Assembly (NCBI GenBank): GCA_965262715.1
Contig: OZ253553.1
Span: forward strand, 2,112,001 to 2,176,000
From: Bdellovibrionales bacterium
GTDB taxonomy: Bacteria; Bdellovibrionota; Bdellovibrionia; Bdellovibrionales; JAUICD01
Length of the DNA stretch: 64,000 nucleotides
Reading direction: 5' to 3'
This document shows, in pieces, positions 15,736-62,272 of this stretch. Numbering within the stretch: the stretch's first letter is position 1; each line of letters starts with the position of its first letter. The notes under the pieces were generated by a model, which saw only the letters and a program-made list of their open reading frames with translations, was not told where the DNA came from and did not search any database. Made by a program: the position numbers and the translations under genes.

Positions 15736-16110
15736 CTGTTTCACTAAAAATGAACCAGCCTCTGGCTGTTTTTGGATAGTCAGCCTGAAGACTCGCGTCT
15801 TCAAGAAAATGCTGACTATCTCAAAAATCCGTTCATTTTTAGTAAGGAGACTCCCTTCGTTCTTTTACATCATGTTAAGGAAATCTTTTTCTTTATTTTC
15901 TATCTTCCCTACTACCTCTTCCCCTTACAAATTATCCCAAATCTTTATTATAGCTCGTAAAAAATTGATGTTTTAAGTTAAAGACGAGATCTTCCGCAGA
16001 GTGATCGCCACCAAAGCGATCACTCGAGGACTTCGAGGCTTGACTTAAAATATCAATTTTCTGCTCTTTCAAAGATTTTTTCCCTGTTTTTTCTAAAAAA
16101 ATAACCATAA
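15736..16110 (-). repeat. Composite structured element (A 15736-15884 + B 15961-16060)
   Basis: Nested stems, GCCTCTGGC hairpin, CATCATGTTAAGGAAAT box, B hairpin. Confidence 0.85.
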
Positions 16111-16111
16111 T

Positions 16112-16663
16112 CTAACCTTGCCTCTGCTTATGTTTAGGGTTCTCACAAATAACCCGAATTACTGTCTCACTAAAAATGAACCAGCCTCTGGCTGTTTTTG
16201 GATAGTCAGACTGAAGACTCGCGTCTTCAAGAAAATGCTGACTATCTCAAAAATCTGTTCATTTTTAGTAAACAGATACTCCCCACCTTTTAACATCATG
16301 TTAAGGAAATCCTTAACCTATTCTCACTAAAAATGCCTCTTGCCTCTGGCAACTTTCTGGCAATGACCCCGACGGCTAAAGCCCTCGGCAAATAGGTCAT
16401 CGCCTAGAAAGAATAAGGCATTTTTACTAAGGAGAAACTCCTCATTCTTTTAAACCATGTTAAGGAAACTTCCTCCTTACAAATCACTCTAAATCTTTAT
16501 TATAGCTCGTAAAAAATTGATGTTTTAAGTTAAAGACGAGATCTTCCGCAGAGTGATCGCCACCAAAGCGATCACTCGAGGACTTCGAGGCTTGACTTAA
16601 AACATCAACTTTCTGCTCTTTCAAAGATTTTTTCCCTGTTTTTTCTAAAAAAATAACCATAAT
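16112..16663 (-). repeat. rpmJ 3' tail copy + A + variant A + B
   Basis: rpmJ tail at 16112; A at 16162 and ~16318; B at 16517-16608. Confidence 0.85.
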
Positions 16664-16714
16664 CTAACCTTGCCTCTGCTTATGTTTAGGGTTCTCACAA
16701 ATAACCCGAATTAG

Positions 16715-17626
16715 CTGTCTCACTAAAAACGAACCAGCCTCTGGCTGTTTTTGGATAGTCAGACTGAAGACTTGCGTCTTCAAGAAAATGCTGACTATCT
16801 CAAAAATCTGTTCATTTTTAGTAAACAGATACTCCCCACCTTTTAACATCATGTTAAGGAAATCCTTAACTGATTTTTATCTTTCTCCTCGTTTAACCTT
16901 GCCTCTGCTTATGTTTAGGGTTCTCACAAATAACCCGAATTACTGTCTCACTAAAAATGAACCAGCCTCTGGCTGTTTTTGGATAGTCAGACTGAAGACT
17001 TGCGTCTTCAAGAAAATGCTGACTATCTCAAAAATCTGTTCATTTTTAGTAAACAGATACTCCCCACCTTTTAACATCATGTTAAGGAAATCCTTAACTG
17101 ATTTTTATCTTTCTCCTCGTTTAACCTTGCCTCTGCTTATGTTTAGGGTTCTCACAAATAACCCGAATTACTGTCTCACTAAAAATGAACCAGCCTCTGG
17201 CTGTTTTTGGATAGTCAGACTGAAGACTTGCGTCTTCAAGAAAATGCTGACTATCTCAAAAATCTGTTCATTTTTAGTAAACAGATACTCCCCACCTTTT
17301 AACATCATGTTAAGGAAATCCTTAACTGATTTTTATCTTTCTCCTCGTTTAACCTTGCCTCTGCTTATGTTTAGGGTTCTCACAAATAACCCGAATTACT
17401 GTCTCACTAAAAATGAACCAGCCTCTGGCTGTTTTTGGATAGTCAGACTGAAGACTTGCGTCTTCAAGAAAATGCTGACTATCTCAAAAATCTGTTCATT
17501 TTTAGTAAACAGATACTCCCCACCTTTTAACATCATGTTAAGGAAATCCTTAACTGATTTTTATCTTTCTCCTCGTTTAACCTTGCCTCTGCTTATGTTT
17601 AGGGTTCTCACAAATAACCCGAATTA
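16715..17626 (-). repeat. Tandem array 4 x 228 bp (A element + rpmJ 3' 50 nt)
   Basis: Units start 16715, 16943, 17171, 17399; near-identical. Confidence 0.95.
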
Positions 17627-17690
17627 CTCCAGATCTTTTGATGATTTTGCATTTATTACAAATAGGTTTAACAGATGGCCTTACTTTCAT
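17577..17690 (-). CDS. rpmJ: 50S ribosomal protein L36 (not in ORF track)
   Basis: Manual translation [37 protein letters not shown]. Confidence 0.97.
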
Positions 17691-17806
17691 CACTAAAATA
17701 TCCTTTAAAAATAACCTAAGCTAAAAAATGTAACATAAAAAATCTTAAAATGACAAGCTTTTATATTTGCAATCTTCTACATTTTTGCAGTATAAAAACC
17801 ATTTTC

Positions 17807-18475
17807 CTAAATATCATTCATCTCATTTGTTTTAATTGTAATAAAAGGTTTCTCAATTCGAGCAAAAACAGCTTCTTCACTGCCTTCCCCATTTACCTCT
17901 AATAAAAGTCCATTTTTTTTATAATACTCAATCAAAGGAGCTGTCTTTTCAATATACACCTCTAATCTCGTTTTTACAACCACTTCACTGTCATCACTTC
18001 TTTGAAAAAGTAGACCTCCACAATGAGTGCAATTGTTGTCTTTTGAAGATACATCATCCACATGAAAAATAGCTTCACAAACTCTACAAATACGCCGGCT
18101 TGTTAAACGGTGCACCAAGACTTCATGAGGAACAGTTAAAAAAATAGCCTTTTCCAAAGTAATACGTTTTTCTTCCAATAAATGAGATAGTCCATTAGCT
18201 TGTGCTATTGTTCTTGGGAAACCGTCCAATACAAATCCCTTAGATATATCTAAGTGCTCAAAAACTTTATAAAATAGTTCTAAAACAATGAGGTCTGGTA
18301 CATATTGGCCTGCATTAATGTATTTTTTAGCCTTCTGACTCCAACTAGAATTCTCCTTTAAATATTTACGGAAAAGACCCCCTGTAGAAATATGATGTAT
18401 TCCATATTTTTTAGTTAAATTGGCAGATTGAGTGCCTTTACCTGCACCTGGAGGACCAAAAAGGAGTATCTTCAA
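17807..18475 (-). CDS. adk: Adenylate kinase
   Basis: GPPGAGKGTQ, LDGFPRT, Zn-lid CxxC...CxxC. Confidence 0.97.
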   Translation of the reverse strand: MKILLFGPPGAGKGTQSANLTKKYGIHHISTGGLFRKYLKENSSWSQKAKKYINAGQYVPDLIVLELFYKVFEHLDISKGFVLDGFPRTIAQANGLSHLLEEKRITLEKAIFLTVPHEVLVHRLTSRRICRVCEAIFHVDDVSSKDNNCTHCGGLLFQRSDDSEVVVKTRLEVYIEKTAPLIEYYKKNGLLLEVNGEGSEEAVFARIEKPFITIKTNEMNDI

Positions 18476-19776
18476 TATTGCACCCTTCTACTCTTGATCT
18501 TATAACCCTTAATAAAGCCGTCATATTGCACATTTAAAAGATGAGATTGCACTTGTTGCATAAAATCTAAACCTACACCAACTAAAATAAGCAAACTTGT
18601 CCCACCAAAATAAAATGGGATTCCAATTTGATTACTTAAAAGCCCTGGCAAAATACAAACAGCACTCAAGTAAACAGCCCCTGCTGTATTGACACGGTTT
18701 AATACTTTTTGAATATAATCTGAGGTGTGCTTGCCTGCTCTAATACCAGGGATAAAACCACCATGTTTTTTTAAATTCTCGGCAACATCATTAGGCTTAA
18801 ATACAATCTCAGCATAAAAAAAGCAAAAAAAGACAATCAATGCTATAAACAAAATATTGTAAATAGACCCTGAAGGCTGAAAAGAATCTCTTAAATTAGC
18901 TATGATCTCATTATTCGTAAAACTTGCTAACGTTGCAGGTAACATCAATAAGCTACTGGCAAAAATGGGAGGAATAACCCCTGAAAAGTTAATTTTTAAT
19001 GGTAAATGAGTCGTTTGCCCACCCATACGAGTAGCTCTTTGTGAATATTGAATAGGGATACGCCTTTGAGCTACCTCCATCCAAATGATATATCCTATCA
19101 CTCCCAACATAAATAATAAAAGAATCAACATAAATAAAGCAGTCATCTGTCCTTGTTGCACAAGATTGATCATAGAAACAAATCCACTAGGAATATCAGC
19201 AGCAATTCCAGCAAAAATAATCAATGAAGCTCCATTGCCAATACCCTTTTCTGTGATCTGCTCCGCAAGCCACATAATGAAACATGTACCAGCTGTTAGA
19301 GTGATAACAGTCATTAATTCAAAAGGAACCAACCCCACATTTGGTGAATTCACAAGAGGTATGCCAGCCTGTGTTGTTTGGCTTTTGATAAAAGTGCTCA
19401 TGCCATAGCCCTGAATAATAGCTAACAGCACCGTGCCATAACGCGTATACTGATTGATTTTCTTTTGACCTTGTTGCCCTTCTTTTTTTAACTGCTCTAA
19501 GTAAGGAACAACCGCTCCTAAAAGCTGAAAAATAATAGAGCTAGAAATATAAGGCATGATTCCAAGAGCAAAAACCGAAAAACTCTCTAATGCCCCACCT
19601 GTAAAAGTGTTTAATAAACCAAAGATGCCAGCACTTTGTACAATGAACTCTCCAACAGCACTATTGTCTGCGCCTGGAGTGGGCACATGAACACCAATCC
19701 TGTAAATAACTAATATCCATAAAGTGAAAAGCAGCCTTTTTCTCAAAGCTTCATTTCTAAGCAGCCCTTCTATCAT
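18472..19776 (-). CDS. secY: Preprotein translocase SecY
   Basis: FALGIMPYI, GIGNGASLIIFAGI, FIPGIR. Confidence 0.98.
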   Translation of the reverse strand: MIEGLLRNEALRKRLLFTLWILVIYRIGVHVPTPGADNSAVGEFIVQSAGIFGLLNTFTGGALESFSVFALGIMPYISSSIIFQLLGAVVPYLEQLKKEGQQGQKKINQYTRYGTVLLAIIQGYGMSTFIKSQTTQAGIPLVNSPNVGLVPFELMTVITLTAGTCFIMWLAEQITEKGIGNGASLIIFAGIAADIPSGFVSMINLVQQGQMTALFMLILLLFMLGVIGYIIWMEVAQRRIPIQYSQRATRMGGQTTHLPLKINFSGVIPPIFASSLLMLPATLASFTNNEIIANLRDSFQPSGSIYNILFIALIVFFCFFYAEIVFKPNDVAENLKKHGGFIPGIRAGKHTSDYIQKVLNRVNTAGAVYLSAVCILPGLLSNQIGIPFYFGGTSLLILVGVGLDFMQQVQSHLLNVQYDGFIKGYKIKSRRVQY

Positions 19777-19817
19777 AAAATGATCCCTGTAGCCATCATA
19801 AGCCTTGCCTTTCTTAT

Positions 19818-20330
19818 CTATCTATCTTTTTTTTCTTCTTTTCCTTTTATTTTCTTGACCACTCTTCTTATAGCAACGCCTCCAGCATCTTTAATAATAG
19901 ACTCTGCCGCTAAACTAAAGGCATCTGCTTCTATATGAAAAGCCCGCTTCAATTCGCTTTTACCCTTTAAGATTTTGATAGGTTGATTCTGCTTTCTAAT
20001 CAACCGAAGTGCTTTTAAAATAGAAGGAGTTATTTTATAAATATCTCCATTAGACTTAAGACCTGCCACTGGCAAATCTGCAACTTTGTCTAAAGAGACA
20101 ATTTGAAATTTGATCTTAGAAATAGGAGTAAAACCAAATTTAGGCAACCTCTGCCAAAGAGGCATTTGCCCTCCTTCAAAAGTAGCCCTACTTGAGCTGC
20201 CTGAACGCGACTTTTGCCCATTATAACCACGAGCTGCTGTTGTACCCCAACCAGAACTATTTCCTCGCCCTATCCTTTTTTTTCTAAAAGTAGACTTCTT
20301 CATAGGTCTTAATTCAGAAAGCAATGACAT
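19818..20330 (-). CDS. rplO: 50S ribosomal protein L15
   Basis: GRGNSSGWG, FEGGQMPL. Confidence 0.96.
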   Translation of the reverse strand: MSLLSELRPMKKSTFRKKRIGRGNSSGWGTTAARGYNGQKSRSGSSSRATFEGGQMPLWQRLPKFGFTPISKIKFQIVSLDKVADLPVAGLKSNGDIYKITPSILKALRLIRKQNQPIKILKGKSELKRAFHIEADAFSLAAESIIKDAGGVAIRRVVKKIKGKEEKKDR

Positions 20331-20357
20331 TATTTTTTACCTACCCATTTGTTATTA

Positions 20358-20558
20358 TTAATTCTTACATACACTCACATCTAAAAGATGTTGTACCTTT
20401 AATACCTGTCCTCTTAAAGATGGAGCATCTAAAAAAACTCTTTGAGAACCTATTTTCTTCAAACCTAAACAACGCACAGTTTCTTTTTGCTTCTTTGTAC
20501 AACCTATTGTGCTTTTTATAAGCTTGATTTTAAAAGATTTCTTATCACTTTGTACCAT
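20358..20558 (-). CDS. rpmD: 50S ribosomal protein L30
   Basis: KLIKSTIG, LGLKKI; gene order. Confidence 0.93.
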   Translation of the reverse strand: MVQSDKKSFKIKLIKSTIGCTKKQKETVRCLGLKKIGSQRVFLDAPSLRGQVLKVQHLLDVSVCKN

Positions 20559-20576
20559 TTTGCATTTCCTATTTTC

Positions 20577-21059
20577 TTATAAATGAGCCACTCCACGTTC
20601 TTTTATGACTTCATCTGCATCTCTAAGCTGCTGCAAACCTTGAATTGTAGCTCTGACCGCTGCATGAGGATTTCTTGTTCCAACACACTTTGTTAAAATA
20701 TTTCTTACACCAGCTACCTCTAAAACAGCCCTTACAGCACCTCCCGCAATCACTCCTGTTCCTGACATAGCAGGAAACATAATGATCTTAGCCACACCAT
20801 ACTTACCAATCACCTCATGCGGAATTGTACCCTTTTCAACAAGCACTTTATAGCAATTGTTCTTAGCAGCCCTTCCTGCTTTACCAATAGCTACAGGTAC
20901 TTCACTGGCTTTTCCAAGACCAAAGCCAATCTCTCCATTTTTATTGCCTATAACAACAAGAGCTGAAAAAGAAAACCTACGACCTCCTTTTACAACCTTG
21001 GCAACACGATTAATGCTCACTACACGTTCTTCAAATTCTTGTGTTGTTTCACTTGCCAC
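20577..21059 (-). CDS. rpsE: 30S ribosomal protein S5 (start set to GTG 21059)
   Basis: [24 protein letters not shown] before GTG. Confidence 0.96.
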
Positions 21060-21071
21060 GAAAACCCCTTT

Positions 21072-21761
21072 CTGTTTCACTAAAATGCATCTCGCCTCTG
21101 GCGATTTTCTGGCGGTCAGCCTGAAGGTTCACAACTTCAGCAAGTAGCTGACTGCCTAGAAAACCTGATGCATTTTAGTAAGGAGAATCTCCTCATTATC
21201 TAACATCATGTTAAGGAAATCTTTTTATCTTCATTCCCTTATCTTTTTAGTTAGTATCTCCTATTCTTTTCCTTATAAACTTCTTAAAACTTTAACCCCA
21301 CCTGTTTCACTAAAATGCATCTCGCCTCTGGCGATTTTCTGGCGGTCAGCCTGAAGGTTCACAACTTCAGCAAGTAGCTGACTGCCTAGAAAACCTGATG
21401 CATTTTAGTAAGGAGAATCTCCTCATTATCTAACATCATGTTAAGGAAATCTTTTTATCTTCATTCCCTTATCTTTTTAGTTAGTATCTCCTATTCTTTT
21501 CCTTATAAACTTCTTAAAACTTTAACCCCACCTGTTTCACTAAAATGCATCTCGCCTCTGGCGATTTTCTGGCGGTCAGCCTGAAGGTTCACAACTTCAG
21601 CAAGTAGCTGACTGCCTAGAAAACCTGATGCATTTTAGTAAGGAGAATCTCCTCATTATCTAACATCATGTTAAGGAAATCTTTTTATCTTCATTCCCTT
21701 ATCTTTTTAGTTAGTATCTCCTATTCTTTTCCTTATAAACTTCTTAAAACTTTAACCCCAC
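21072..21761 (-). repeat. Tandem array 3 x 230 bp (A element + rplR 3' 18 nt)
   Basis: Identical units at 21072, 21302, 21532. Confidence 0.95.
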
Positions 21762-22106
21762 CTTACGAGCTGCATCTGCTAACTCCTTAATACGACCATG
21801 ATAAAGATAACCACCCCTATCAAACTTTACTGTAACAATATTCTTTTCTAAAGCTATCTTAGCAATCTTCTCTCCAACAGATCTAGCTGTTTCCTTATTG
21901 TTTTTAGGTTCCTTCAGTGATGAAACAAAACCTAATGTTTTTTTCAATTGATCGTCAATGATCTGAGCATAAATATGCCTATTAGAACGAAATACAGCAA
22001 GCCTTGGCCTATCAGAATGTCCTTCTATTTTTTTCCTAATACGCGCTCGACTCTTTAATCGATTCGTTACCTTTTTAGTCGTTAATCTATGAATCTTTAA
22101 TCTCAT
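21744..22106 (-). CDS. rplR: 50S ribosomal protein L18
   Basis: [28 protein letters not shown]. Confidence 0.97.
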
Positions 22107-22146
22107 CTTTCACTGTTTCCCTTGTTTTTTCTAAAAAAACAATACA

Positions 22147-22686
22147 TCACTTACCACCTGTCTTTCCAGCTTTCCTTCTAACTACTTCGTTTGTGTATTT
22201 AACGCCTTTTCCTAAATAAGGCTCAGGTGGCCTAAAAGCTCGAATTTTTGCAGCCACTTGCCCCACAACTTGCTTATCCGGTCCCTTTATATGAATCGTC
22301 GTCTGCTTTTCAACATTTGCTTCAATATGCTCAGGCAAGTCTAAAATAATAGGATGACTATATCCTAAATTCAATTCTAAAGACTTCCCTTTAACCGATG
22401 CCCTATAACCCACTCCTTTCATTTCTAATGTCTTTGTCCAACCCGATGTTACACCTATCACAGCATTTTGAGCCAAAGACCTATAAAGTCCATGCAAACT
22501 ACGGCTTTCTTTAGATTCATCCTTACGATCAAATAAAATAAAACCATCCTTAACAGATGCAGTGATAGCAGAGTTCATCTCAATAGTCTGAGTTAACTTA
22601 GATCCTTTCACAGTAACTTTGTTGTCTAAAATACTTACCTGAACATTAGAATTAAAAGATACCGGTGCTTTACCAATCCTAGACAT
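22147..22686 (-). CDS. rplF: 50S ribosomal protein L6
   Basis: MSRIGK, GVGYRA, RPPEPYLGKG. Confidence 0.97.
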   Translation of the reverse strand: MSRIGKAPVSFNSNVQVSILDNKVTVKGSKLTQTIEMNSAITASVKDGFILFDRKDESKESRSLHGLYRSLAQNAVIGVTSGWTKTLEMKGVGYRASVKGKSLELNLGYSHPIILDLPEHIEANVEKQTTIHIKGPDKQVVGQVAAKIRAFRPPEPYLGKGVKYTNEVVRRKAGKTGGK

Positions 22687-22707
22687 AATAAACTACAAAG
22701 TTCTTCA

Positions 22708-23091
22708 TTACCAAACCTGAATGAGAACCTCACCTCCCACATTCTGTTTTTTCGCTTCTTCCCCCGACATCACACCCTTACTAGTACTTAAAATAGAAAG
22801 GCCATACCCAGAACGAACTTTAGGTATACTCTGGACTCCAGCATATTTTCTCAAACCCGGCTTGCTTATTAAACGAATCACATTGATTAAAGGCTTTCTC
22901 TGATGAGTGTACTTTAAATAAATGCGAAGCATGCCCTGCTTAGAGTCCTTGGCCTCAGCAAAATGCCTGATAAAGCCCTTCTCTTTCAAAACCATCGCTA
23001 CAGCCTTCCTCATATTAGAACTAGGTATATCTACCTTATCATGGTTTGCCATCTGAGCATTCCTAATACGAGTGATAAAATCACTAATCAC
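22708..23091 (-). CDS. rpsH: 30S ribosomal protein S8 (start set to GTG 23091)
   Basis: DFITRIRNA, ISKPGLR, STSKG, GGEV; AGGAG SD. Confidence 0.95.
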   Translation of the reverse strand: MISDFITRIRNAQMANHDKVDIPSSNMRKAVAMVLKEKGFIRHFAEAKDSKQGMLRIYLKYTHQRKPLINVIRLISKPGLRKYAGVQSIPKVRSGYGLSILSTSKGVMSGEEAKKQNVGGEVLIQVW

Positions 23092-23106
23092 TTCAAAAAC
23101 TCCTAT

Positions 23107-23210
23107 CTGTCTTACCAAACATCTGACCCCTCACGAGGCAAGCCTCTCGAGGTCAAGCTTCCAGCCACTTTCTAGCAGTCAACTGAAGTAGCTGATTACC
23201 AAAAATGCTT
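23107..23210 (-). repeat. Degenerate family A copy
   Basis: CTGTCTTA end, AAGCCTCTCGAGG, TTTCTAGCAGTCA..GTAGCTGA. Confidence 0.6.
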
Positions 23211-23221
23211 TTTATAATATA

Positions 23222-23407
23222 TCACCAGCTGGCTTTTATAACTCCAGGAATCAACCCATTGCCAGCCCTTTGTCTAAAACAAATACGGCACATTGCAAAT
23301 TTACGCATATAACTGCGCGGACGACCACAAAGCTCACAACGATTGTATTTCCTAACTTTAAACCTCTGCTTTTTTTGAGCTTTAGCAATCATTGATTTCT
23401 TAGCCAT
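23222..23407 (-). CDS. rpsN: 30S ribosomal protein S14 (Zn-binding type Z)
   Basis: [23 protein letters not shown]; 61 aa. Confidence 0.97.
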
Positions 23408-23432
23408 ACTGTTCTCCTCAAAATGACCCAAC

Positions 23433-23612
23433 CTTCTTCACTCAAAATAACCTAACCTCTTGAGGCAAGCCTCTCGAGGCGAGCCTCTGGTTGCTTTCTA
23501 GTAATGACCCCAAATAGCTAAAGCCCTTAAACAAATAGGTCATTGCCTAGAAAAAATAACGCAATTTGGTAAAGAGAATCTCTTCATCCCTTCGCATCAT
23601 GTTAAGGGAATT
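23433..23612 (-). repeat. Family A copy (variant with extra hairpins)
   Basis: CACTCAAAAT, GCCTCTGG, AATGACC/GGTCATT stem, CATCATGTTAAGGGAAT. Confidence 0.8.
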
Positions 23613-23736
23613 ATAATATCTAACTGCATCAAAATCCGAAGATTACCTTCATTTTTTTACAAAATGTCAGGAAACCCTTATTCACTTAAAACACGAATCT
23701 CTAGTCACTCTTTCTTACTCTACCTTTACTTACCTG

Positions 23737-24282
23737 TCATACTTTTTTAAAAGGCATACCCAAAGCACTTAATAAAGCCAGTCCTTCCTTATTTGAAGGA
23801 GCTGATGTACATACCGTGATATTCATTCCTCGTATCTGATCAATCTTATCATAGTTAATCTCTGGAAACACAATTTGCTCCTTAAGTCCCATATTAAAGT
23901 TGCCCTTACCATCAAACCCTTGTGGAGAAATACCTCTAAAATCTCGCACACGAGGCAATGCTAAAGAAATTAACCGGTCAAGAAAAGACCACATTTTTTC
24001 CCTTCTTAAAGTTACAAAAGCTCCAAGCGGCATGCCCTTTCTTAATTTAAAGTTGGCAATAGCCTTCTTTGCTTTAGCAATACAAGGCTTTTGTCCAGTC
24101 ATAAATGCTAAATCCGACTCAATAAAAGGCACTGTCTTAGAGTTTTTAACAGCCTCCTTACCAGAACAAACACTTACTACAATCTTTTGCAACTTAGGGA
24201 TCTGCATAGAAGAACTATAAGCAAATTGTTCCTTTAATTTTGTCTTTACCTCTAAGTTGTATTTTTCCTGCAGTCGATTCAT
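23737..24282 (-). CDS. rplE: 50S ribosomal protein L5
   Basis: TGQKP, LPRVRDFRG, FPEINYDK. Confidence 0.97.
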   Translation of the reverse strand: MNRLQEKYNLEVKTKLKEQFAYSSSMQIPKLQKIVVSVCSGKEAVKNSKTVPFIESDLAFMTGQKPCIAKAKKAIANFKLRKGMPLGAFVTLRREKMWSFLDRLISLALPRVRDFRGISPQGFDGKGNFNMGLKEQIVFPEINYDKIDQIRGMNITVCTSAPSNKEGLALLSALGMPFKKV

Positions 24283-24327
24283 AATATTTCTCATCCACAT
24301 TACTTATATTTCTTATAACAAACCCTA

Positions 24328-24356
24328 ACATTAACTGATACAAGCTCAGTTGTCAA
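24328..24356 (-). promoter_or_regulatory. Putative sigma70 promoter of rplE operon
   Basis: Minus strand TTGACA-17 nt-TAATGT. Confidence 0.5.
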
Positions 24357-24373
24357 AATTGTCAAGTCATTTA

Positions 24374-24510
24374 TTTTCACTTAAAATGAACATGACCACT
24401 TATCTGACATCAACCCGAAAATTGCATCATTAGCAAATAGCTGACCGCCTAGAAAGAATGATGCACTTAGGAAAAAACATCTTCATTCTTTTATACTATG
24501 TTAAGAAATA
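24374..24510 (-). repeat. Degenerate family A copy
   Basis: TTTCACTTAAAATG...GCAAATAGCTGACCGCCTAGAAAG...ATGTTAAGAAAT. Confidence 0.7.
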
Positions 24511-24548
24511 ACTTATTTTATCTACTACTAATCTTTATAAAGAACAAT

Positions 24549-24584
24549 AAAAAAAGGTAAGCCTTAGCTAGCCTACCCTTTTTT
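24549..24584 (-). terminator. Intrinsic terminator
   Basis: Minus strand GGTAGGC/GCTTACC stem followed by T run. Confidence 0.7.
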
Positions 24585-24624
24585 AAATCACAATTATAAA
24601 AATAAGTGTTTTTAAAACTATATT

Positions 24625-25221
24625 TTATTGGTCATCATCGTCGCCATCATCATCAGAAGCAGGTGGCGTTGGTTCTAATCTAGCTACAGCATCACTATCT
24701 AATACCGCCTCTGCTAATTCCGCGCCTGCTACATTAGTATCTTCCTCATCACTTAATATACCTTGAAGTGCATTATAAGCATCTTCAGTTACAGTATGTA
24801 ACGTAAAGACTCTGTCGTTATCATCCTCAGTATCATGATGTTCCACGAGAACATAAAACTTTGCTTCCTCCGGATCATCTGTTGGTGAAGCCGCCTCTGC
24901 TGGTGGAGGTGTATCTCCTGGTGGAGCTGGTGTACCTTCTGGTGGAGCTGGTGTACCTTCTGGTGGAACTGGTAGAGCCACCGGTGCATCCTCTGCAGCA
25001 AGATAAAGTGTTCTTGTGTCATCACCTTCTATAGCGATTTCTTGATCAAAATCAACATTATATCTTACATCTTCGTAGTCAAAATGTAGGGTATTGGTAT
25101 TTTGGTTTAAATTATAATTAATTATGGTTGGTCCCTCTCCATCAGAACCACCACGATTTGCACACCCAAAAACTGTGATAGTTAAAAGCACCGCAGTTAA
25201 TAATAATATTTTATTTTTCAT
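24625..25221 (-). CDS. Acidic lipoprotein with PPEGTPA 21-bp repeats
   Basis: Lipobox VFGC; GGAGG SD before ATG 25221. Confidence 0.75.
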   Translation of the reverse strand: MKNKILLLTAVLLTITVFGCANRGGSDGEGPTIINYNLNQNTNTLHFDYEDVRYNVDFDQEIAIEGDDTRTLYLAAEDAPVALPVPPEGTPAPPEGTPAPPGDTPPPAEAASPTDDPEEAKFYVLVEHHDTEDDNDRVFTLHTVTEDAYNALQGILSDEEDTNVAGAELAEAVLDSDAVARLEPTPPASDDDGDDDDQ

Positions 25222-25623
25222 TATAACCTCCAAAGACTAAAGTAGTTGAATTTTTAATCAAGTTAAAATAAACAAACCAATTAGAGATTGTTATTTCAAT
25301 TTAATTAACACTTCTAAAAAATGAATATCTTATCCTTCAAGGGTAATCTGACATATTTTAAGTAGGCAAGAAGTTTTTTTATAAAGTCTTGTTATTTCTA
25401 AAAACAAACTGGTAATAATGCGACACGTCAAATCATGCAATGTTTTTTACCTTGCAGGCTTTAACTCTAACCTATTTTATTTTCAGTGATCATTATTTTA
25501 TTGATCAGTAAAAGTAAAAAATATTAAAAACTATTTAAAATCAATGACTTCTATTGTAACTCTATTGTCACCATATAAATAAACCCAAAAGTATAGGCAA
25601 ACTACATTAACAAGAAGAGTTGA

Positions 25624-27126
25624 TTAGTCAGGCCAGCTCAAAATCAAATCGTGTCTTTTTTGCAAGTGAGGCATTTGTTGTTGAGCTTTCCTTTGCTGGC
25701 GGAATAATTTGTCTCGAATAGACTCTATACTATAATACTCCGGATGGCCTTTTAGAAGTTTAGGATTATTGGTCAGTTGGACATCAAGTGAATTTAATTC
25801 TGCTTGCAAAGTTTGTATTTTTTTACTTATCTTCTGATACTCTGCTATTTTATCACGACCAAGGACATTTTGACGGTCACAATAAGCTTTTTGAGCTAAA
25901 CAAGCATTGTTCCTACTGGATGTTTGATAACTTAAACGAGAACACTGTCGATAAAGTTTCACATCATCTCTTAAGGAACAATTTCCATACAAAATAGCTT
26001 GAAAATGTGAAGGATCTAAAAGAGAATCATCATTCTCATCATCGAAAACATTACCCCATCGAATACCATGGCTTGATAACATACTATTTTCTTGAACCAC
26101 ACGGCAATCATAATTTGGTGCATAACGCTCTTCAAGATATTCATCCCATAAACCTAAAAGATGTATTATTTCATGTGTTGTAGATGAACAGTGCATATTC
26201 ATATGATAGTATTTAGCATTCCTGAGTGCGTAACGAGAACCAATTTGAATAGAATGTTTTGGCATACAAGAATCAACCTGATAAGCATCTTCAATGACAA
26301 TTTCTAATATTTCTCCATGAGGTCCTCTCATTTTAAGATTGGCCTCACTTATACAAGGTCTGACTTTTTCTTCTATGTAATAATTATGCATTTGATCAAT
26401 TGGCACAGGTATATCTCCATCATACCAAAGAGAAAAATGAACAGAGAACTTTAAAGTCACAAAAGCTTTATAATGATTTTTAGATTTTCTTTTTATCTTA
26501 TAATAAATATAAGGAAGAATAGTCGACTGAACTGGAGTGATAATAAAATGTTTTTCCTCTCCAATTTTGTATTCACTACAAGACCCTTCATCTTCTAACC
26601 TCTGTAAAAGATTAACAAGCTCAGTGCTTATGTAATGTGGGGATGCATTATTCTCCAATAAATGCTCAGCAAAAGGTGTTATCAAGTTTGGATTATGTGA
26701 CACCATTACATTCACTAAAGATAAAACCCTATCACGGACAACCGCATACTCAGCTTGCATATCCTGACAACTGCTTTTTTCTTCATCTGTTAGAGCTTCA
26801 CAGCTGATAGGTACTCGATTGTATTTGTTAAGTTCATTTTTTAAACCTTCTAGAATAAATCGCAAACACAATGTTCCTTTTTCATTTAGAATATGCAGAA
26901 TTTGATTATATTGAGATAAAGACCCATGAGTAACAAGTTGTACAATATCTGTACTATAACAAACACCTGGGTCACAATTAGAAGTTAATTGTGTTGCTAT
27001 CTTACTAACTTTTTCTTCTGTAAAAATAAGAGGTGAATGAGAAGCAAAAACCAGACATGAAACACTAAAAACTTTTATAAGATAAATACAACAAACTATC
27101 CATTTCAATCTCATTTTCAATTCCAA
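25624..27126 (-). CDS. Secreted putative zinc metallopeptidase
   Basis: HEIIHLLGLWDEY; signal-like N-terminus; Cys-rich. Confidence 0.7.
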   Translation of the reverse strand: MELKMRLKWIVCCIYLIKVFSVSCLVFASHSPLIFTEEKVSKIATQLTSNCDPGVCYSTDIVQLVTHGSLSQYNQILHILNEKGTLCLRFILEGLKNELNKYNRVPISCEALTDEEKSSCQDMQAEYAVVRDRVLSLVNVMVSHNPNLITPFAEHLLENNASPHYISTELVNLLQRLEDEGSCSEYKIGEEKHFIITPVQSTILPYIYYKIKRKSKNHYKAFVTLKFSVHFSLWYDGDIPVPIDQMHNYYIEEKVRPCISEANLKMRGPHGEILEIVIEDAYQVDSCMPKHSIQIGSRYALRNAKYYHMNMHCSSTTHEIIHLLGLWDEYLEERYAPNYDCRVVQENSMLSSHGIRWGNVFDDENDDSLLDPSHFQAILYGNCSLRDDVKLYRQCSRLSYQTSSRNNACLAQKAYCDRQNVLGRDKIAEYQKISKKIQTLQAELNSLDVQLTNNPKLLKGHPEYYSIESIRDKLFRQQRKAQQQMPHLQKRHDLILSWPD

Positions 27127-27415
27127 AAAGTAAAACCATCACCTGAAGTCATTCATTGTACTTATTTAATAACTTAACAAAACCAGTAATATCACAAATA
27201 GTTTTAATCCTCACCTATCATTTCTGGAGATATTTTACCAACATTTAATTTGAAAGCCAAATTTATCTTAATATTGCAAAATACAAAGCTTATTTTTGAG
27301 ACTGCTTCTAAATAATATCCAAACATAAATTGTTCTTATAATTTTTATAAACATTTTATATATGAAGCGGTCTCAAAAATAAAAGTTTATTCAACTCCGT
27401 CAAGAACATAAAAAC

Positions 27416-30916: not shown

Positions 30917-30918
30917 AA

Positions 30919-48875: not shown

Positions 48876-48889
48876 TCCCCCTGATCAAT

Positions 48890-50477: not shown

Positions 50478-50507
50478 AGTACCTTACATACCATATAGGA
50501 GTTTGAA

Positions 50508-54367: not shown

Positions 54368-54383
54368 AAGACCGGAGATATAA

Positions 54384-56561: not shown

Positions 56562-56668
56562 CCTTAGGTTTATGACCAGTTAGCTTTCTTTTTTTCTGGG
56601 ATCTCGCAGTCGGGCAAGCTGTTTGTTTTGAGCTTTAAAGTTATAAGTCTATATCAAATCCAATACAG

Positions 56669-57604: not shown

Positions 57605-57859
57605 GATAAAACATCCTTACTTAAAAACTATTTTTTAAATTTCTAGTTTTTGAAATAAACAATAACCTGTATCGTCGCCTAAATTCCTTCTTAATCAACT
57701 TTGTAGAAAATTACATTCTACCTTAACTACCTTCTCATTAAAGCACAGCTAATCACTTTTCTTTTAATACGTATTAACTACCCTTACAATTAAATAATAT
57801 GTAATTAAGATAAATATAAAGCTTCCATTATAAAATAAGGTTTATAACTAGATAAGCTT

Positions 57860-58140
57860 TCTTTATTCCAGTATCTGGCAAATAAGGCAATACCTAGAAA
57901 GCCTGATCATTTTTTAGAAAGAAGATACCCTTCGTTTTTTTACACAATACTAAAGAAATTGGTTTATTTCCTTACTTTATCTCACACTTCCTCTCTTTAA
58001 CAAATCATCCAAATCTTTATAGCAAAGTACAATTTGATGCATAAGCTAAACGACGAGACCTTCCGTAGAAAAATTCCCGGTGGCAATTTCTCGAGGACTT
58101 CGAGGGTTTAACTTATGCCTCAAATCAAAGCTTTCAAAAA
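57860..58140 (-). repeat. Degenerate composite A+B element
   Basis: CCTAGAAAGCCTGAT, CCAAATCTTTAT; B at 58033-58124. Confidence 0.65.
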
Positions 58141-58207
58141 TGTTGTTCTAGACATCCTATTGCAGAAAGCGATCAAAATAATACAGATTAGATGTTAAAA
58201 ACAAAGG

Positions 58208-58555
58208 CTATTTTTGCATATAGGAAGCACCTTCAAAAACTGCACCTTCTTCAATCTTAAGGCTAGGAGTGGTCACTGTGCCCTTAAGTATGGCAGGTGG
58301 GTGCATTACAACTTGCTCTTGAGCAAAGATATTACCTTTTACAGTGCCAGAAACAATGACAGTATTAGCTTCAATCTGTGCCTCAACATCAGCACCAGGA
58401 TCTACCACTAAAGTGTCTTTTGTGAATATCTCCCCACGAAATTTTCCACCAATGCGCACAACACCCTCAAAAGTCAAATTACCCTCAAAGGTTGCTCCCT
58501 TATCTAATAAGGCAGTGACATGATGAAAATCTTTATTGTTTGTTATACCTGCCAT
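58208..58555 (-). CDS. Bactofilin
   Basis: FEGNL, IGGKFRGEI, LKIEEGAVFEG. Confidence 0.92.
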   Translation of the reverse strand: MAGITNNKDFHHVTALLDKGATFEGNLTFEGVVRIGGKFRGEIFTKDTLVVDPGADVEAQIEANTVIVSGTVKGNIFAQEQVVMHPPAILKGTVTTPSLKIEEGAVFEGASYMQK

Positions 58556-58623
58556 TTTCTAACCTGTTTTTAAAATCAAAAAATTTATTATCTTTTATAA
58601 GTTTACTGATATTTACATCAATA

Positions 58624-58639
58624 TGTTCCACGTGGAACA
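58624..58639. promoter_or_regulatory. parS: parS site
   Basis: Perfect palindrome TGTTCCACGTGGAACA downstream of parB. Confidence 0.9.
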
Positions 58640-58640
58640 T

Positions 58641-58990
58641 TTTTCACTCAAAATAAACCAGCCTCTGGCTGTTTTTGGGCAATGACCCCGATGGTCTTAC
58701 GCCATCGGAAAATGGTCATTGCCTCAAAAATCCGTTTATCTTGAGTAGAGAGACTCCCTTCATTTTTTAACAAAATGTTAAGGAAATCGTCCTTTTACTA
58801 TCTTCTTCTCTCTCCTGCAAATCACTCCAAATCTTTATAACTAAAAAAAGAGTTGATATTTTAAGTTAAAGGCGAGATCTTCCGCAGAGAGATCGCTACC
58901 AAAGCGATCTCTCGAGGACTTCTCGCCTTAACTTAAAATATTAAATCATTGCCTCAAAAGATTTTCCCTTGTCCTTTCTAAAAAACCCCT
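58641..58990 (-). repeat. Composite A+B structured element
   Basis: A 58641-58788; B 58853-58944. Confidence 0.88.
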
Positions 58991-59071
58991 TACCCATCCA
59001 CTTTGAATAAAAAGATAGCTCTTTTATCTTACTTACATTATATTAAGGAAAATTTCCTCCTACTTATCTTT

Positions 59072-60016
59072 TTATGCTTTTACTGATGAAAGCTTCTCCG
59101 AAATAGCAGTTAATTGCTCATTAGAGTAATATTGAATAATGATTTGCCCTTTTCCATCTTTATGATGAATCACTTGTACCTTTGTGCCTAAACTTTTTTG
59201 TAAGTCTTCCGCCATCTTATGAATGATATTCCTTGTTAAACTTGCTATTTTTTTCGATGATTTAAGGTTAGCATGAGATGTCCTGTCAAGATTCTTTTTA
59301 ATTTCTGCCAATCTATGAACACTTAACTGTTTTTTCACAACTTGATGTGCCAATTGTTTTTGCCGTTTTGTATTACTTATACCTAAAAGCACTTTGGCAT
59401 GACCACTTGATATTTTACCCTCAGAAATAAGTTTTTGGACCTCTTTATCTAACTTTAATAAACGCAAGGCATTCGTGATAGTTGTACGGTCCTTACCTAC
59501 TTTTTGAGAAATATCTTCCTGAGTCATTTTGTGCTTTGATAACAATTCATAATATGCCAAAGCCTCTTCAATGGGATTTAAGTCTTCTCTTTGAATATTC
59601 TCGATCAAAGCAAGCTCTAAACCTGACTTCTCATCTATTTCTGTACCTTCTTTTATAATAGCTGGAATAGTTTTCAACCCAGCCATTTGACTAGCTCTCC
59701 ATCTTCTTTCTCCTGCAAGAATTTTAAAAGTAGAACTATCTGCCCTTTTGACTATAACCGGCTGTAAAATACCTTGCTGCTGTATGGAATTTGCTAATTC
59801 TTGCAATTTTGCTTTTTCAAAAACCTTTCGAGGTTGCGTTGTACCAGGTACAATCTTATGCAAAGCAATATTCCAAATACGTAAATCTACATTTTTATCT
59901 GTTGGTTCTATAAAAACATTGGCTTCAAACAAGCTATCTAAACCTCTTCCAAGAGGTTTAGATAGTGCCTTTCTAGACCTATTAGCTTTTTTGCCAATTT
60001 TATTTGTATTTAACAT
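59072..60016 (-). CDS. parB: Chromosome partitioning protein ParB
   Basis: LGRGLDSL, AGERRWRA, LIENIQREDL. Confidence 0.96.
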   Translation of the reverse strand: MLNTNKIGKKANRSRKALSKPLGRGLDSLFEANVFIEPTDKNVDLRIWNIALHKIVPGTTQPRKVFEKAKLQELANSIQQQGILQPVIVKRADSSTFKILAGERRWRASQMAGLKTIPAIIKEGTEIDEKSGLELALIENIQREDLNPIEEALAYYELLSKHKMTQEDISQKVGKDRTTITNALRLLKLDKEVQKLISEGKISSGHAKVLLGISNTKRQKQLAHQVVKKQLSVHRLAEIKKNLDRTSHANLKSSKKIASLTRNIIHKMAEDLQKSLGTKVQVIHHKDGKGQIIIQYYSNEQLTAISEKLSSVKA

Positions 60017-60858
60017 AATTGATCCTTTTTTGCTTGAGTCATTTTAATTGGTTTTTGCAATGAAATTGAATCGCTATTTTGAATTTGTTCATCTAACTCT
60101 TCTGCAAGTTTCTGATAACAAATCGCTCCAACAGATCTAGAATCATAATCAAAAATGCAAAGTCCATGACTGGGAGCTTCACTTAACTTAACATTTCTAG
60201 GAATAACGCTTTTAAACACTTGCTTACTAAAATGCTGATTGGTTTCAGCAATAATTTGATGAGATAACCTATTTCTGACATCAAACATGGTAAATAAAAT
60301 GCCTTGCATATTCAGTTTTGGATTGAGCTTTTTCTTAATCAAGCTGGCTGTATTAAGAAGCTGGCTTAACCCTTCCAATGCATAATACTCACACTGCAAA
60401 GGGACTATAAACGACTTAGCAGCTGTTAATGCGTTGATAGTCAATAGATTAAGAGAAGGAGGTGCATCTATTAAAATATAATCTAAAAGACTGTTTTTAG
60501 AGGGTTTTTTACTTTGATGTTTCATAAAATGAGAGATGCTATCTGATAATAAGTGCTCCCTACGAGATATATCAACAAGCTCTACCTCAGTTCCTGCAAG
60601 ATGAGAGTTAGCAGGAACCAGACTTAAGTTGGGAACTGAAGTCTCCATCATTACATCAAGAAGAGTTTTTTGACCAATCAGAACATTATAAATAGTGTCT
60701 TCTTTTCTTATACCAAGACCGCTAGAAGCATTAGCTTGAGGGTCCATATCAATAAGCAATATCTTTCGACCTAAACGTGCAAGTCCAGCCGCAAGGTTGA
60801 TGGCAGTCGTTGTTTTGCCTACACCTCCCTTTTGATTCACAATACAAATAGATTTCAT
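60010..60858 (-). CDS. parA: Chromosome partitioning ATPase ParA/Soj (start set to ATG 60858)
   Basis: NQKGGVGKTT, DMDPQAN, QCEYYALEG, EAPS. Confidence 0.96.
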   Translation of the reverse strand: MKSICIVNQKGGVGKTTTAINLAAGLARLGRKILLIDMDPQANASSGLGIRKEDTIYNVLIGQKTLLDVMMETSVPNLSLVPANSHLAGTEVELVDISRREHLLSDSISHFMKHQSKKPSKNSLLDYILIDAPPSLNLLTINALTAAKSFIVPLQCEYYALEGLSQLLNTASLIKKKLNPKLNMQGILFTMFDVRNRLSHQIIAETNQHFSKQVFKSVIPRNVKLSEAPSHGLCIFDYDSRSVGAICYQKLAEELDEQIQNSDSISLQKPIKMTQAKKDQLC

Positions 60859-60988
60859 AATACAACCGCATCTTGTTTCAGTAAGGAGAATACCCTTGTT
60901 CCAAAACAACCTCCCCTACTCTAATGAACTTTAGAATCACTTTTGATGACACGCAAGTGAATTTTAAACATATTTAAGTAAAAGTAAG

Positions 60989-61341
60989 CATTTCCTTAAT
61001 AGGCACTTTTAGTGAGACAGGTTCCCTTAACATGATGTTAAAGGACAAGAGGTATCTGCTTTACTCAAAATGAACGGATTTTTGAGGCAACAACCATTTT
61101 CCGATGGCGCAAGACCATCGGGGTCATTGCCCAAAAACAACCAGAGGTGTGAGAGTGTATTGTTTTTTAGAAAAACAAGAAAAAATCTTTGGAGTTATGA
61201 TTTGGAGTGATTTGTAAGGGAGAAAGAGAAGAAGATAGTAAAAGGACATTTTCCCTAACATTTTGTTAAAAAATGAGGGGTACCTCGTTTACTAAAATGC
61301 ATCAGTTTTTCTAGGCAGAGGCGAAATGCATTTTAGTGAAA
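60989..61341 (+). repeat. Rearranged family A copies in reverse orientation
   Basis: TTTTAGTGAGACAG end at 61020; A at 61021-61148; internally deleted A at 61251-61341. Confidence 0.8.
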
Positions 61342-61350
61342 AGCGAAACG

Positions 61351-61366
61351 GGTTCCACGTGGAACA
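61351..61366. promoter_or_regulatory. parS: parS site
   Basis: GGTTCCACGTGGAACA, one mismatch from the other site. Confidence 0.85.
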
Positions 61367-61473
61367 CTCTAAGTAAATACTATTTTTATAAGAAACAACA
61401 ACTGCTTACACCCTTCACCCTATCATAAACACCTCCTTTTGTTATAGTCACTCCTATTAATAAAAGCGAAAAG

Positions 61474-61893
61474 TTGCCTAGGTGTCATGTACACCACAAT
61501 CATCCAGGGAAAGAATTGCTCAAAAATGGAGCTGATCCAGATATTAAGGATAGTCAACTTCGAAGTGCCTTAATGTTTGCCAGTGCTACAAGCTTTATCC
61601 CTGGAGTAGAAATTCTTATTGAATATAACGCTGATGTAAATGCAAATACTGCTATATCTCCAGAATCAGACCTAGCTATAAGAGCTGCAATGAGACGCAC
61701 AAAACTTGATGAGTATCTCACTTTCGATCCAAATAACTTTATATCACCTATGATTTGTGCAGATATAATAGATATTCTAGTAAGTCCTAATAATACTGAA
61801 AGGATTAGAGAGATACTCTCAGAAGCTGGAGCTGATGCTCTGTCAGACAATACTGAAATAACAAGTTACCATATAAGTCGATGTCTGGGATAG
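61474..61893 (+). pseudogene. Ankyrin-repeat fragment, probably 5'-truncated
   Basis: ELLKNGADPDIKD..SALMFA; weak TTG start. Confidence 0.55.
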
Positions 61894-61918
61894 AGCTGGT
61901 GGTTCGAGACAGTTATTA

Positions 61919-62272
61919 GAAGCCATCTCAAAAATGAATGCTCCTAGAGAGAAAAGTTTTAAAAAAGATACCAGTTTTGCATTTAATTTATTTCACTCAA
62001 AATGAATAGAAGACAAGCCTTTTATACAAGAAATTAGAGGTAATAGGTACAAACGTTTATAGACTTTTACTGAAACAGCACGATTCCCTTAACATGATGT
62101 TAAATAATGAGGAGTATCTCGTTTACTAAAATGCATCAGGCTTTCTAGGTCAGCTATTTGCTGACGATGTGAATCGTCAGGCTGACTACCAGAAAGTCGC
62201 CAGAGGCTAGCCTCGAGAGGCGAGATGCATTTTAGTGAAAATAGATTAAACTTTTATTTTTGAGACCGCTTC
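61919..62272. mobile_element. MITE family C (TA-flanked) carrying an A element
   Basis: TIRs GAAGCCATCTCAAAAAT / ATTTTTGAGACCGCTTC; inverted homolog of 42978-43304. Confidence 0.8.

What the first reader, a model, noticed from the sequence alone, without database searches (positions are those of the whole stretch)
15736..62245. Dispersed family of multi-stem non-coding elements with compensatory covariation
Seen: about 19 copies of a ~150-nt element (15736, 16162, 16318, 16715, 16943, 17171, 17399, 21072, 21302, 21532, 23107, 23433, 24374, 43113, 57860, 58641; reversed at 61021, 61251, 62083). Sequence differs but the fold is kept. Outer stem: ACTAAAAATGAAC/GTTCATTTTTAGT, ACTAAAATGCATC/GATGCATTTTAGT, CTCAAAATGAAT/ATTCATTTTGAG. 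Side hairpin: CAGCCTCTGGCTG, TCGCCTCTGGCGA, TTGCCTCTGGCAA. Middle stem: GATAGTCAGC/GCTGACTATC, GGCAATGACC/GGTCATTGCC. A variable apical hairpin, a TAACATCATGTTA palindrome and a fixed terminus (GA(A/G)ACAG) complete it. Copies follow the direction of neighbouring genes. Inference: a structure-selected non-autonomous mobile element or structured RNA that I do not recognise. G-U evidence for strand is mixed, so an ssDNA fold is as plausible as an RNA fold.
Basis: partly seen in the sequence, partly recalled or inferred. Interest (0 to 1): 0.88.

Follow-up and report, generated by a model that had tools for sequence, protein, structure and literature searches.

The report
Fold-selected selfish DNA repeat, mover unknown
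A 150-base folded DNA repeat has copied itself hundreds of times through the genomes of one genus of Bdellovibrionales bacteria; it seems to spread as folded single-stranded DNA with one exact end, and no known type of transposase could be matched to it.

Summary
In detail: 18 of 19 listed copies match a model, and the stems co-vary strongly. The family is genome-wide: 458 hits here, 753 end motifs in congener G001, and no true match outside this genus among 121 genomes of the order. No Rfam match. The scan noted it before at other places in this genome.

New here:
(1) The fold looks like DNA. In the relative, 189 of 193 apical tetraloops are C-GNNA-G on one strand, and wobble pairs are rare.
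(2) The left end is joined exactly. The right end carries variable flank and resolves by homology, giving nested, chimeric and tandem copies without a regular target duplication.
(3) The left end abuts stop codons, ribosome-binding sites, tRNA ends and both parS sites.
(4) G001 has seven identical dispersed copies, but no reverse transcriptase, Y1 or IS110 gene was detected; the IS91 search had no positive control.
(5) Other Bdellovibrionales carry their own structured repeat families.

Orientation does not follow genes genome-wide. Best reading: a non-autonomous, one-ended, single-stranded-DNA copy-and-paste element whose mover is unidentified.

The parts
15710..15735 (+). Left stub of an older copy, cut at its side-hairpin loop, into which the 15736 copy is joined; lies just upstream of the rpsM ribosome-binding site (gene on -)
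   Evidence: sequence; 28 of 46 nested junctions in the genome fall at this same position
15736..15883 (+). Full element copy (left end CTGTTTCAC, three-way-junction rod, right end ATGTTAAGGAAA)
   Evidence: CM 163.5 bits
15958..16061 (.). Second hairpin repeat family carried in the right flank of the element (again at about 16512-16612); approximate limits
   Evidence: sequence; de novo families FAM3/FAM5
16162..16309 (+). Full copy
   Evidence: CM 151.3 bits
16319..16468 (+). Full copy of another stem subtype, head-to-tail behind the previous one
   Evidence: CM 128.2 bits
16715..17628 (+). Tandem array, period 228: four copies (16715, 16943, 17171, 17399), each followed by about 80 nt of right flank; the repeat starts exactly at the element's left end. 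The 302-codon ORF over it has no NCBIfam hit and is probably a by-product of the repeat
21072..21761 (+). Tandem array, period 230: three copies (21072, 21302, 21532) plus 82 nt of flank that includes the last codons of rplR; the outer left end abuts the rpsE ribosome-binding site
23107..23240 (+). Decayed copy between rpsN and rpsH; below both models; right limit approximate
   Evidence: by eye; absent
23433..23610 (+). Diverged copy with an expanded side hairpin, between rplE and rpsN (rpsN 23222-23407, -)
   Evidence: CM 60.5 bits
24372..24509 (+). Decayed copy upstream of rplE
   Evidence: HMM 51 bits; CM 25.1 bits
43113..43250 (+). Variant copy; the rod is kept and the right end is replaced by another hairpin family
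   Evidence: CM 78.5 bits; sequence
57875..57961 (+). Right-hand part of a copy only
   Evidence: HMM positions 66-150
58624..58639 (.). parS-type palindrome, directly abutted by the left end of the 58639 copy (motif identity recalled; parA/parB lie at 59072-60909)
58639..58786 (+). Full copy
   Evidence: CM 151.5 bits
61019..61177 (-). Copy with an altered left end
61250..61344 (-). Copy with the middle stem deleted; its left end lies about 7 nt from the second parS-type site (61351-61366)
62084..62243 (-). Full copy with a doubled side hairpin
   Evidence: CM 117.1 bits

Best explanation
A non-autonomous selfish DNA element that is read as folded single-stranded DNA and spreads by one-ended copy-and-paste. 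The copied tract runs through the element and on into the donor's right flank (a G-poor tail of about 14 nt, often more). The far end is resolved against the target by homology or microhomology. A target inside an older copy gives a chimera; a target to the right of the donor gives a tandem (element + flank) array; a target to the left deletes the DNA in between. INFERRED: the strand ending ...GTGAAACAG-3' folds as ssDNA with DNA mini-hairpin loops and serves as template for a target 3'-OH. Only well-folded copies get copied, which is why the stems co-vary. Repeated leftward events, pruned by selection, leave the end resting against the next indispensable feature (stop codon, ribosome-binding site, tRNA end, parS). 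NOT SHOWN: the protein that makes the ends. My best guess is host replication or repair polymerase switching template, perhaps fed by breaks from the many Rpn nucleases; IS1634 transposase is second.
For: Mobility: seven identical cores at dispersed G001 sites with different flanks. None in G001's rpsM-rplE stretch, where this window has 13 copies. At two sites shared with a 91%-identical sister species the junctions are kept while the interior stems are swapped. End asymmetry: in the arrays of this window the repeat begins at the left end; among 94 isolated loci 23 share only a right flank with another locus and 7 only a left flank (p = 0.005). In nested events the stub and the remainder fail to pair in 5 of 6 (G000) and 12 of 18 (relative) cases, and donor flank visibly replaces the target's middle-stem arm at L302 and L304. 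No regular duplication: 8 of 130 singleton loci have a long one, and short k-mers show at most a small excess over permutation. DNA fold: 189 of 193 tetraloops are GNNA and all 193 are C-G closed on one strand, 0 on the other, and only 116 are GNRA; GCGNNAGC occurs in 185 of 231 copies, the mini-hairpin DNA motif, whose RNA counterpart is much less stable (PMC13037366, passages). Core helices hold 2317 Watson-Crick, 47 + 28 wobble and 48 other cells. Boundaries: left end 0-6 nt after a stop at 12 of 89 loci against 2.5% expected; 12-18 nt before a start at 11 of 82, none at 20-30; within about 4 nt of a tRNA end at 7 of 35 genes, on both strands; next to both parS-type sites, which are DNA features. 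No RVT_1, Y1 or IS110 gene detected in G001.
Against: No mover was identified and nothing was tested at the bench. In G000 itself the loop signal is weaker: 70 of 105 tetraloops GNNA, 56 of them GNRA, 48 C-G closed. G000 has an intact group II intron RT and a retron-like RT. G001 is 90% complete by markers, and a distant RT or HUH protein, or one on an unassembled replicon, could be missed. The IS91 search rang in no control genome. The A-rich bulges lie on the strand opposite to the stable loops, and the analogous G003 family has its loops on the other strand relative to its ends. Rpn genes are not enriched beside the element (8 of 39 against 246 of 973), and G007 has a repeat family with no Rpn hit. 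Some abutment is forced where the ancestral gap was tiny (rplR-rpsE in G004). Start codons were called by a simple rule. Gene conversion between copies could produce part of the covariation.
Confidence: 0.55

Rival explanations
1. A SINE-like retro-element: the folded strand is an RNA copied from its 3' end by a reverse transcriptase in trans (group II intron protein), by target priming or template jumping from tRNA and mRNA ends.
For: A fixed 3' end with a variable 5' side, variable duplications and extra junction bases fit target-primed reverse transcription. Loops in G000 are mostly GNRA. Junctions sit at tRNA CCA and 5' ends. G000 has a group II intron and a deleted derivative.
Against: G001, with 753 end motifs and recent identical copies, has no RVT_1 candidate at all. 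73 of 189 GNNA loops there have a pyrimidine at position 3. Wobble pairs are no commoner than plain mismatches. parS junctions cannot come from RNA ends.
Confidence: 0.15
2. A MITE moved by a resident DDE transposase, most plausibly of the IS1634 family, which makes long variable direct repeats.
For: The ends are weakly inverted (TTTC(A/C)CTAA against TTA(A/G)GGAAA). IS1634-like genes occur in G000, G001 and the sister contig but not in G003. Their duplications here are 38-337 bp, like the flank lengths in the arrays. Seven IS1634 copies carry the subterminal 10-mer TAGTGAAACA, identical to the element's left end. PMC2266710 (passages) says no mechanism is known for these long repeats.
Against: All IS1634 termini read begin CCTGA(G/C)TT and do not match. 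The right end is not fixed. 122 of 130 singletons lack a long duplication. Frequent element variants break the shared 10-mer. A DDE enzyme gives no reason for a selected internal fold.
Confidence: 0.12
3. A host-selected cis element (terminator, RNA-stability element or protein-binding site) whose copies are each kept folded by host selection.
For: The side hairpin scores as terminator-like. Copies often start right after stop codons. Tight operon gaps prefer one orientation (30 against 14). 10 of 35 tRNA genes have a copy nearby.
Against: Positions are not conserved between congeners. Copies break four-helix-bundle genes and a CRISPR repeat and nest inside each other. The terminator-like score is the same on both strands. 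No genome-wide orientation rule.
Confidence: 0.08
4. An old repeat whose apparent covariation is made by mechanism rather than selection: conversion between copies and intra-hairpin template switching keep the arms matched, with no dedicated mobility.
For: Orthologous copies show wholesale interior replacement. Stem alleles are recombined in many combinations.
Against: It does not explain exact left junctions at new sites, conserved bulges and the three-way junction, or strand-specific C-GNNA-G loops with free middle bases.
Confidence: 0.1

Closest known systems
REPINs moved by RAYT (Bertels and Rainey 2011, PMC3116915; passages read)
   Same: About 100-150 nt, hundreds of extragenic copies, compensatory changes in a ssDNA hairpin, insertion into or next to existing copies, tandem clusters with flank.
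   Different: No REP doublet or GTAG end, branched asymmetric fold, no RAYT (G001 has no Y1 hit; G000's only Y1 is an IS200-type gene with no copy beside it), variable right end resolved by homology.
bcr1 of the Bacillus cereus group (as summarised in Delihas 2011, PMC3184786; passages read)
   Same: About 155 bp, non-conserved positions, compensatory changes that keep a cruciform-like fold, described as possibly a special class of mobile sequence.
   Different: bcr1 has 5-bp direct repeats at each copy and is read as an RNA fold; this element has no regular duplication and carries DNA-type loops. No sequence comparison was made.
CGTC-tagged REPs and Rickettsia RPEs (Di Nocera 2013, PMC3733652; passages read)
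   Same: Abundant palindromic repeats, apparently without a dedicated transposase.
   Different: No CGTC tag, longer branched fold, almost never inside genes (2 of 178 loci).
IS1634/IS1549 family (PMC2266710; passages read)
   Same: Long variable duplications next to some copies; present in both genomes; a shared subterminal 10-mer.
   Different: Termini do not match and most copies have no duplication.
Rolling-circle elements (IS91/ISCR, Helitrons; recalled, no call)
   Same: One fixed end, leaky other end with capture of flank, head-to-tail arrays, no duplication.
   Different: No Y2 transposase found (search lacked a positive control); far end resolved by homology; no target tetranucleotide seen.

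Membership tests
REPIN/RAYT | Two REP palindromes in inverted orientation, GTAG-tagged | tested here: not met
   Consensus and fold are asymmetric with a three-way junction and no GTAG end
REPIN/RAYT | RAYT (Y1) gene flanked by the repeat | tested here: not met
   G001 0 hits; G000 1 hit, nearest copy about 1.8 kb away and partial
REPIN/RAYT | Hairpin kept by compensatory changes, extragenic, high copy | tested here: met
MITE | Terminal inverted repeats matching a resident IS | tested here: not met
   Ends read for IS30, IS3, IS5, IS256 and the IS1634 subfamilies do not match (part was cut); only a weak 9-nt inverted likeness between the element's own ends. ISfinder could not be searched
MITE | Regular target-site duplication | tested here: not met
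   8 of 130 singletons with a long one; no consistent 4-9 nt excess
SINE-like retro-element | Reverse transcriptase available in trans | tested here: inconclusive
   3 hits in G000, 0 in G001
SINE-like retro-element | Discrete RNA and cDNA intermediate | not testable with these tools
   No RNA holder listed
IS91/ISCR-type rolling-circle element | Y2 HUH transposase | tested here: inconclusive
   0 of 5 genomes, but 0 of 14 controls; a crude HUH motif scan of G000 ORFs found none, and also missed the known Y1 gene
IS91/ISCR-type rolling-circle element | One fixed end, leaky other end, no duplication | tested here: met
IS110-derived element | IS110 recombinase in the genome | tested here: not met
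   0 in G000 and G001; rang in 6 of 14 controls
Known structured RNA (Rfam 15) | Match at gathering score | tested here: not met
   0 in the whole window; only weak hits, E 0.42-4.9, in 20900-24600
bcr1 | 5-bp direct repeats at every copy | tested here: not met

The most novel reading that the evidence does not exclude
This is the type member of a class of transposase-free mobile DNA. Short sequences fold as single-stranded DNA with nuclease-resistant mini-hairpins, act as landing pads for host-generated 3' ends, and are copied by host polymerases. Unrelated families of similar build in other Bdellovibrionales (G003, G004, G007, G011, G022) would be independent lineages of the class, and the same route might explain orphan repeats such as RPEs and bcr1. 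The fixed end would then also act as a deletion ratchet that trims intergenic DNA up to the next essential base.
Probability: 0.22. Interest if true: 0.88.

Novelty: new variant of a known kind. Interest (0 to 1): 0.62.

Why it matters
How small structured bacterial repeats without a matching transposase move is an open question (CGTC REPs, RPEs, bcr1). This family offers over a thousand natural copies with dated, readable junctions. They give a concrete model (one exact end, one homology-resolved end, DNA mini-hairpin fold) and rule out the usual movers in at least one genome with recent activity. It also warns that strong covariation is not proof of an RNA: such repeats would pass ncRNA discovery screens. 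If host enzymes alone suffice, it is a new route of selfish DNA spread and of intergenic remodelling in reduced genomes.

Tried and rejected
Autonomous parent with both ends around an ORF: none seen among the 76 left-end motifs outside element hits or the first 60 right ends listed without a left end. Hairpin as the general target: rejected; 31% of 167 left flanks against 26% of 300 intergenic controls fold at -5 kcal/mol or better, and the shifted control is equal. Pairing or templating of the right tail by the element's own interior: no consistent signal. Rpn linkage in cis: none. Four-helix-bundle genes: 6 of 11 have a copy nearby (p = 0.04), but G004's own contigs have many such genes and no element. 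Hammerhead-like core: the CTGA bases are paired and variable. Sigma-70 promoter: 0 found in 20900-21800. Presence in a second genus: G004's matches lie only on contigs C1, C4 and C11, which are about 91% identical to G000 and duplicate ribosomal genes held on C14, so I read them as a mis-binned sister species. Metagenome pattern scan: 0 of 68 loci are real (best 14 bits). Sequencing runs: no RNA holder listed; laid contigs confirm the window's sequence and show strain variation but say nothing on expression. Literature searches listed no paper on such a repeat in Bdellovibrionota; none of the 20 and 15 papers listed contained the organism term. Subscription papers and ISfinder were not searchable, and no supplements were read.
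Full report
Setting. The window is C1:2112001-2176000 of G000, a single 2.94-Mb contig with 33.6% GC. It holds the spc/alpha ribosomal operons and parA/parB. The pattern scan's main hit is a Bdellovibrionales chromosome, so I place the host in that order. ATGTTAAGGAAA). 'Relative' is the pooled set of G001 loci plus the loci, de-duplicated by sequence; it is a sample biased towards element-rich places.

1. Observation. An iterated HMM gives 458 hits in G000, 319 near full length, and 0 in the reversed genome. They cover 2.1% of the genome and 8% of non-coding DNA. A right-end motif occurs 301 times in G000, 753 in G001, 0 in G002 and G003, and 9 in G004. G004's copies lie on three small contigs about 91% identical to G000 that duplicate ribosomal genes, so they come from a mis-binned sister species. 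A covariance model matches only these three of 121 genomes of the order. The family is therefore confined to one genus among those searched. Rfam gives nothing.

Fold. An A/T-rich outer stem, a 5-bp side hairpin and a long middle stem meet at a three-way junction. An A-rich bulge leads to the apical hairpin. A spacer and the AACA-NN-ATGTT palindrome follow. In 129 non-redundant G000 copies most of the top mutual-information pairs lie in this fold. In 60 copies from three genomes (60 of 62 selected), 30 of 44 pairs show double changes, and the structure far exceeds shuffled and slid controls. Between 96 nearest-neighbour pairs there are 144 double Watson-Crick changes, 223 single changes and about 4 doubles expected by chance; parsimony on a tree needs 222 switches. 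Recombination between copies inflates that last figure.

2. RNA or DNA. Apical loops are strand-specific. In the relative, 189 of 193 tetraloops read GNNA on the minus strand, all 193 are closed by C-G, none read GNNA on plus, and only 116 are GNRA. 185 of 231 copies contain GCGNNAGC. PMC13037366 (passages) describes GCGNNAGC and GCGNAGC as extraordinarily stable DNA mini-hairpins, nuclease-resistant, found at phage ssDNA priming sites, and much less stable as RNA. Core helices contain 2317 Watson-Crick cells, 47 and 28 wobble-type cells and 48 other mismatches; from my own knowledge RNA helices usually carry more G-U. Against this, G000's loops are less clear (70 of 105 GNNA, 56 GNRA, 48 C-G closed), and the A-rich bulges are on plus.

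3. How copies arise. Seven G001 copies have an identical 148-nt core at dispersed sites, each joined at CTGTTTCAC to a different target. Five sit in the side-hairpin loop of older copies. Their right flanks differ by degrees, and at L302 and L304 donor flank has replaced the 5' arm of the old copy's middle stem before crossing into the old copy. In G000, 28 of 46 nested junctions hit that same loop position. The right end is followed by a G-poor tail of about 14 nt, which at known empty sites replaces a similar length of target, or goes with duplications of about 0, 9 or 30 nt. Of 178 loci, 48 are clusters. In both arrays of this window and several others the repeat unit begins at the left end and includes right flank, most often about 80-90 nt; other arrays break elsewhere. 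122 of 130 singletons have no long duplication, and there is no regular short one. Against the sister species, two shared sites keep their junctions while the interior stems are swapped for other matched alleles, and at a third the left junction lies about 14 nt further out. One rule covers these cases: a target 3' end is joined to the left end, copying runs rightwards past the element, and the far end is resolved by homology.

4. Where the left end rests. It lies 0-6 nt after a stop codon at 12 of 89 loci (2.5% expected), and six more ORFs run into the element and use its TAA. The right end shows far less of this (22 of 89 against 7 of 97, p = 0.001). It lies 12-18 nt before a start codon, flush with the ribosome-binding site, at 11 of 82 loci. 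It is within about 4 nt of a tRNA end at 7 of 35 genes, four at CCA and three at the 5' end, one of these a stub; my arithmetic from 241 junctions and about 1.5 million non-coding strand positions gives about 0.06 expected. Both parS-type sites of the genome have a left end beside them. Flanks are not more structured than controls. I infer repeated left-end deletions stopped by selection, or 3' ends made where polymerases stall at bound features. The parS cases favour a DNA-level process. Orientation is free genome-wide and biased only in tight operon gaps.

5. Mover. G000 has a group II intron, its deleted derivative, a retron-like RT and one IS200-type Y1 gene. None forms an autonomous version of the element; the copy near the retron-like gene is joined to tRNA-Asp. 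G001 has no RVT_1, Y1 or IS110 hit; the Y2 search was uncontrolled. Both genomes have many Rpn genes (19 and 16 PF04754, 5 and 14 PF12784), four-helix-bundle genes (19 and 14) and IS1634 elements. PMC5350276 (passages) reports that RpnA is a non-specific nuclease leaving 3'-OH ends that can prime template switching, which fits the junctions, but Rpn genes are not linked to the element. IS1634 here makes 38-337-bp duplications and shares a subterminal 10-mer with the left end, but its termini differ.

6. Wider pattern. G003 has no RT, Y1, IS110, DDE_1 or four-helix-bundle hit, yet has its own family: 63 hits in 400 kb of Rpn-biased sequence, with a conserved start, a rod with varying matched stems, mostly C-(G/A)NA-G triloops, a conserved CAACGTTCAAGG end (this element: CAATGTTAAGG) and tandem copies. 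The two profiles do not cross-match. G004's own contigs, G007, G011 and G022 show other folded repeats; G002 and G024 show none in 186 and 140 kb. I did not test covariation or junctions formally for these.

7. Comparison and verdict. It works like a REPIN (PMC3116915, passages) and resembles bcr1 and the transposase-less CGTC REPs and RPEs (PMC3184786, PMC3733652, passages), but fails the defining tests of each, and of MITEs. The likeness to rolling-circle elements is recalled, not sourced. Earlier scan notes had already called it an undescribed selfish three-way-junction repeat. The strand evidence, the end asymmetry, the boundary abutment, the recent activity without a detected RT, and the restriction to one genus were tested here. 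Verdict: real, a new variant of non-autonomous structured repeat, most likely a one-ended ssDNA copy element (0.55), mover open. Interest 0.62.

Noticed in passing
window 11727-12836 (-): Ribosomal protein L17 is fused to a C-terminal TlpA/ResA-like thioredoxin domain; orthologous ORFs in G001 and G004 are of similar length.
   Followed up: no
window 24625-27126 and G000:C1:2839000-2844000: The S10-spc ribosomal cluster is split between rplN and rplE in G000; rplN lies about 700 kb away with its own element array.
   Followed up: partly
G000:C1:2591988-2608450: Two large ORFs (1334 and 1407 aa) next to a long CRISPR array with a Cas12a-type repeat (type recalled); the element is inserted in a terminal repeat with a 9-nt duplication and the whole block is repeated.
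   Followed up: partly
G000:C1:2198524-2198955: Four tandem 89-nt altered copies of tRNA-Trp precede the intact gene, with no element involved.
   Followed up: no
G000 genome-wide; e.g. C1:566750-566907, 1186612-1186799, 602906-603041: At least six further palindromic repeat families with up to about 80 matches each; one lies inside IS30 and one inside IS5, and the group II intron is inserted in one.
   Followed up: partly
L019:14300-17250 (G001 spc operon): Where G000 has this element, G001 has 11 hits of a different, purine-rich repeat of about 100 nt, abutting ribosome-binding sites and accompanied by a duplicated rplR 3' end; no Rfam match.
   Followed up: partly
L251:7596-7830 and others (G003): A separate structured repeat family with DNA-type triloops, a TAGCG(T/A) motif recalled from plasmid single-strand origins, and a sigma-70-like right end in some copies.
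   Followed up: partly
G004 contigs C1, C4, C11: About 80 kb of contamination from a sister species of G000 in the G004 bin.
   Followed up: yes
IS1634 copies, e.g. G000:C1:738961-740598 flanks: IS1634 elements carry a repeated subterminal TAGTG motif near both ends and make 38-337-bp target duplications.
   Followed up: partly
G000 and G001 four-helix-bundle and Rpn genes: Often flanked by CCGG-containing heptamer repeats; four-helix-bundle genes are multi-copy in G000, G001, G004, G021 and G025.
   Followed up: no
window 1737-2690 (+): One of 27 IS30-family transposase genes in the genome.
   Followed up: no
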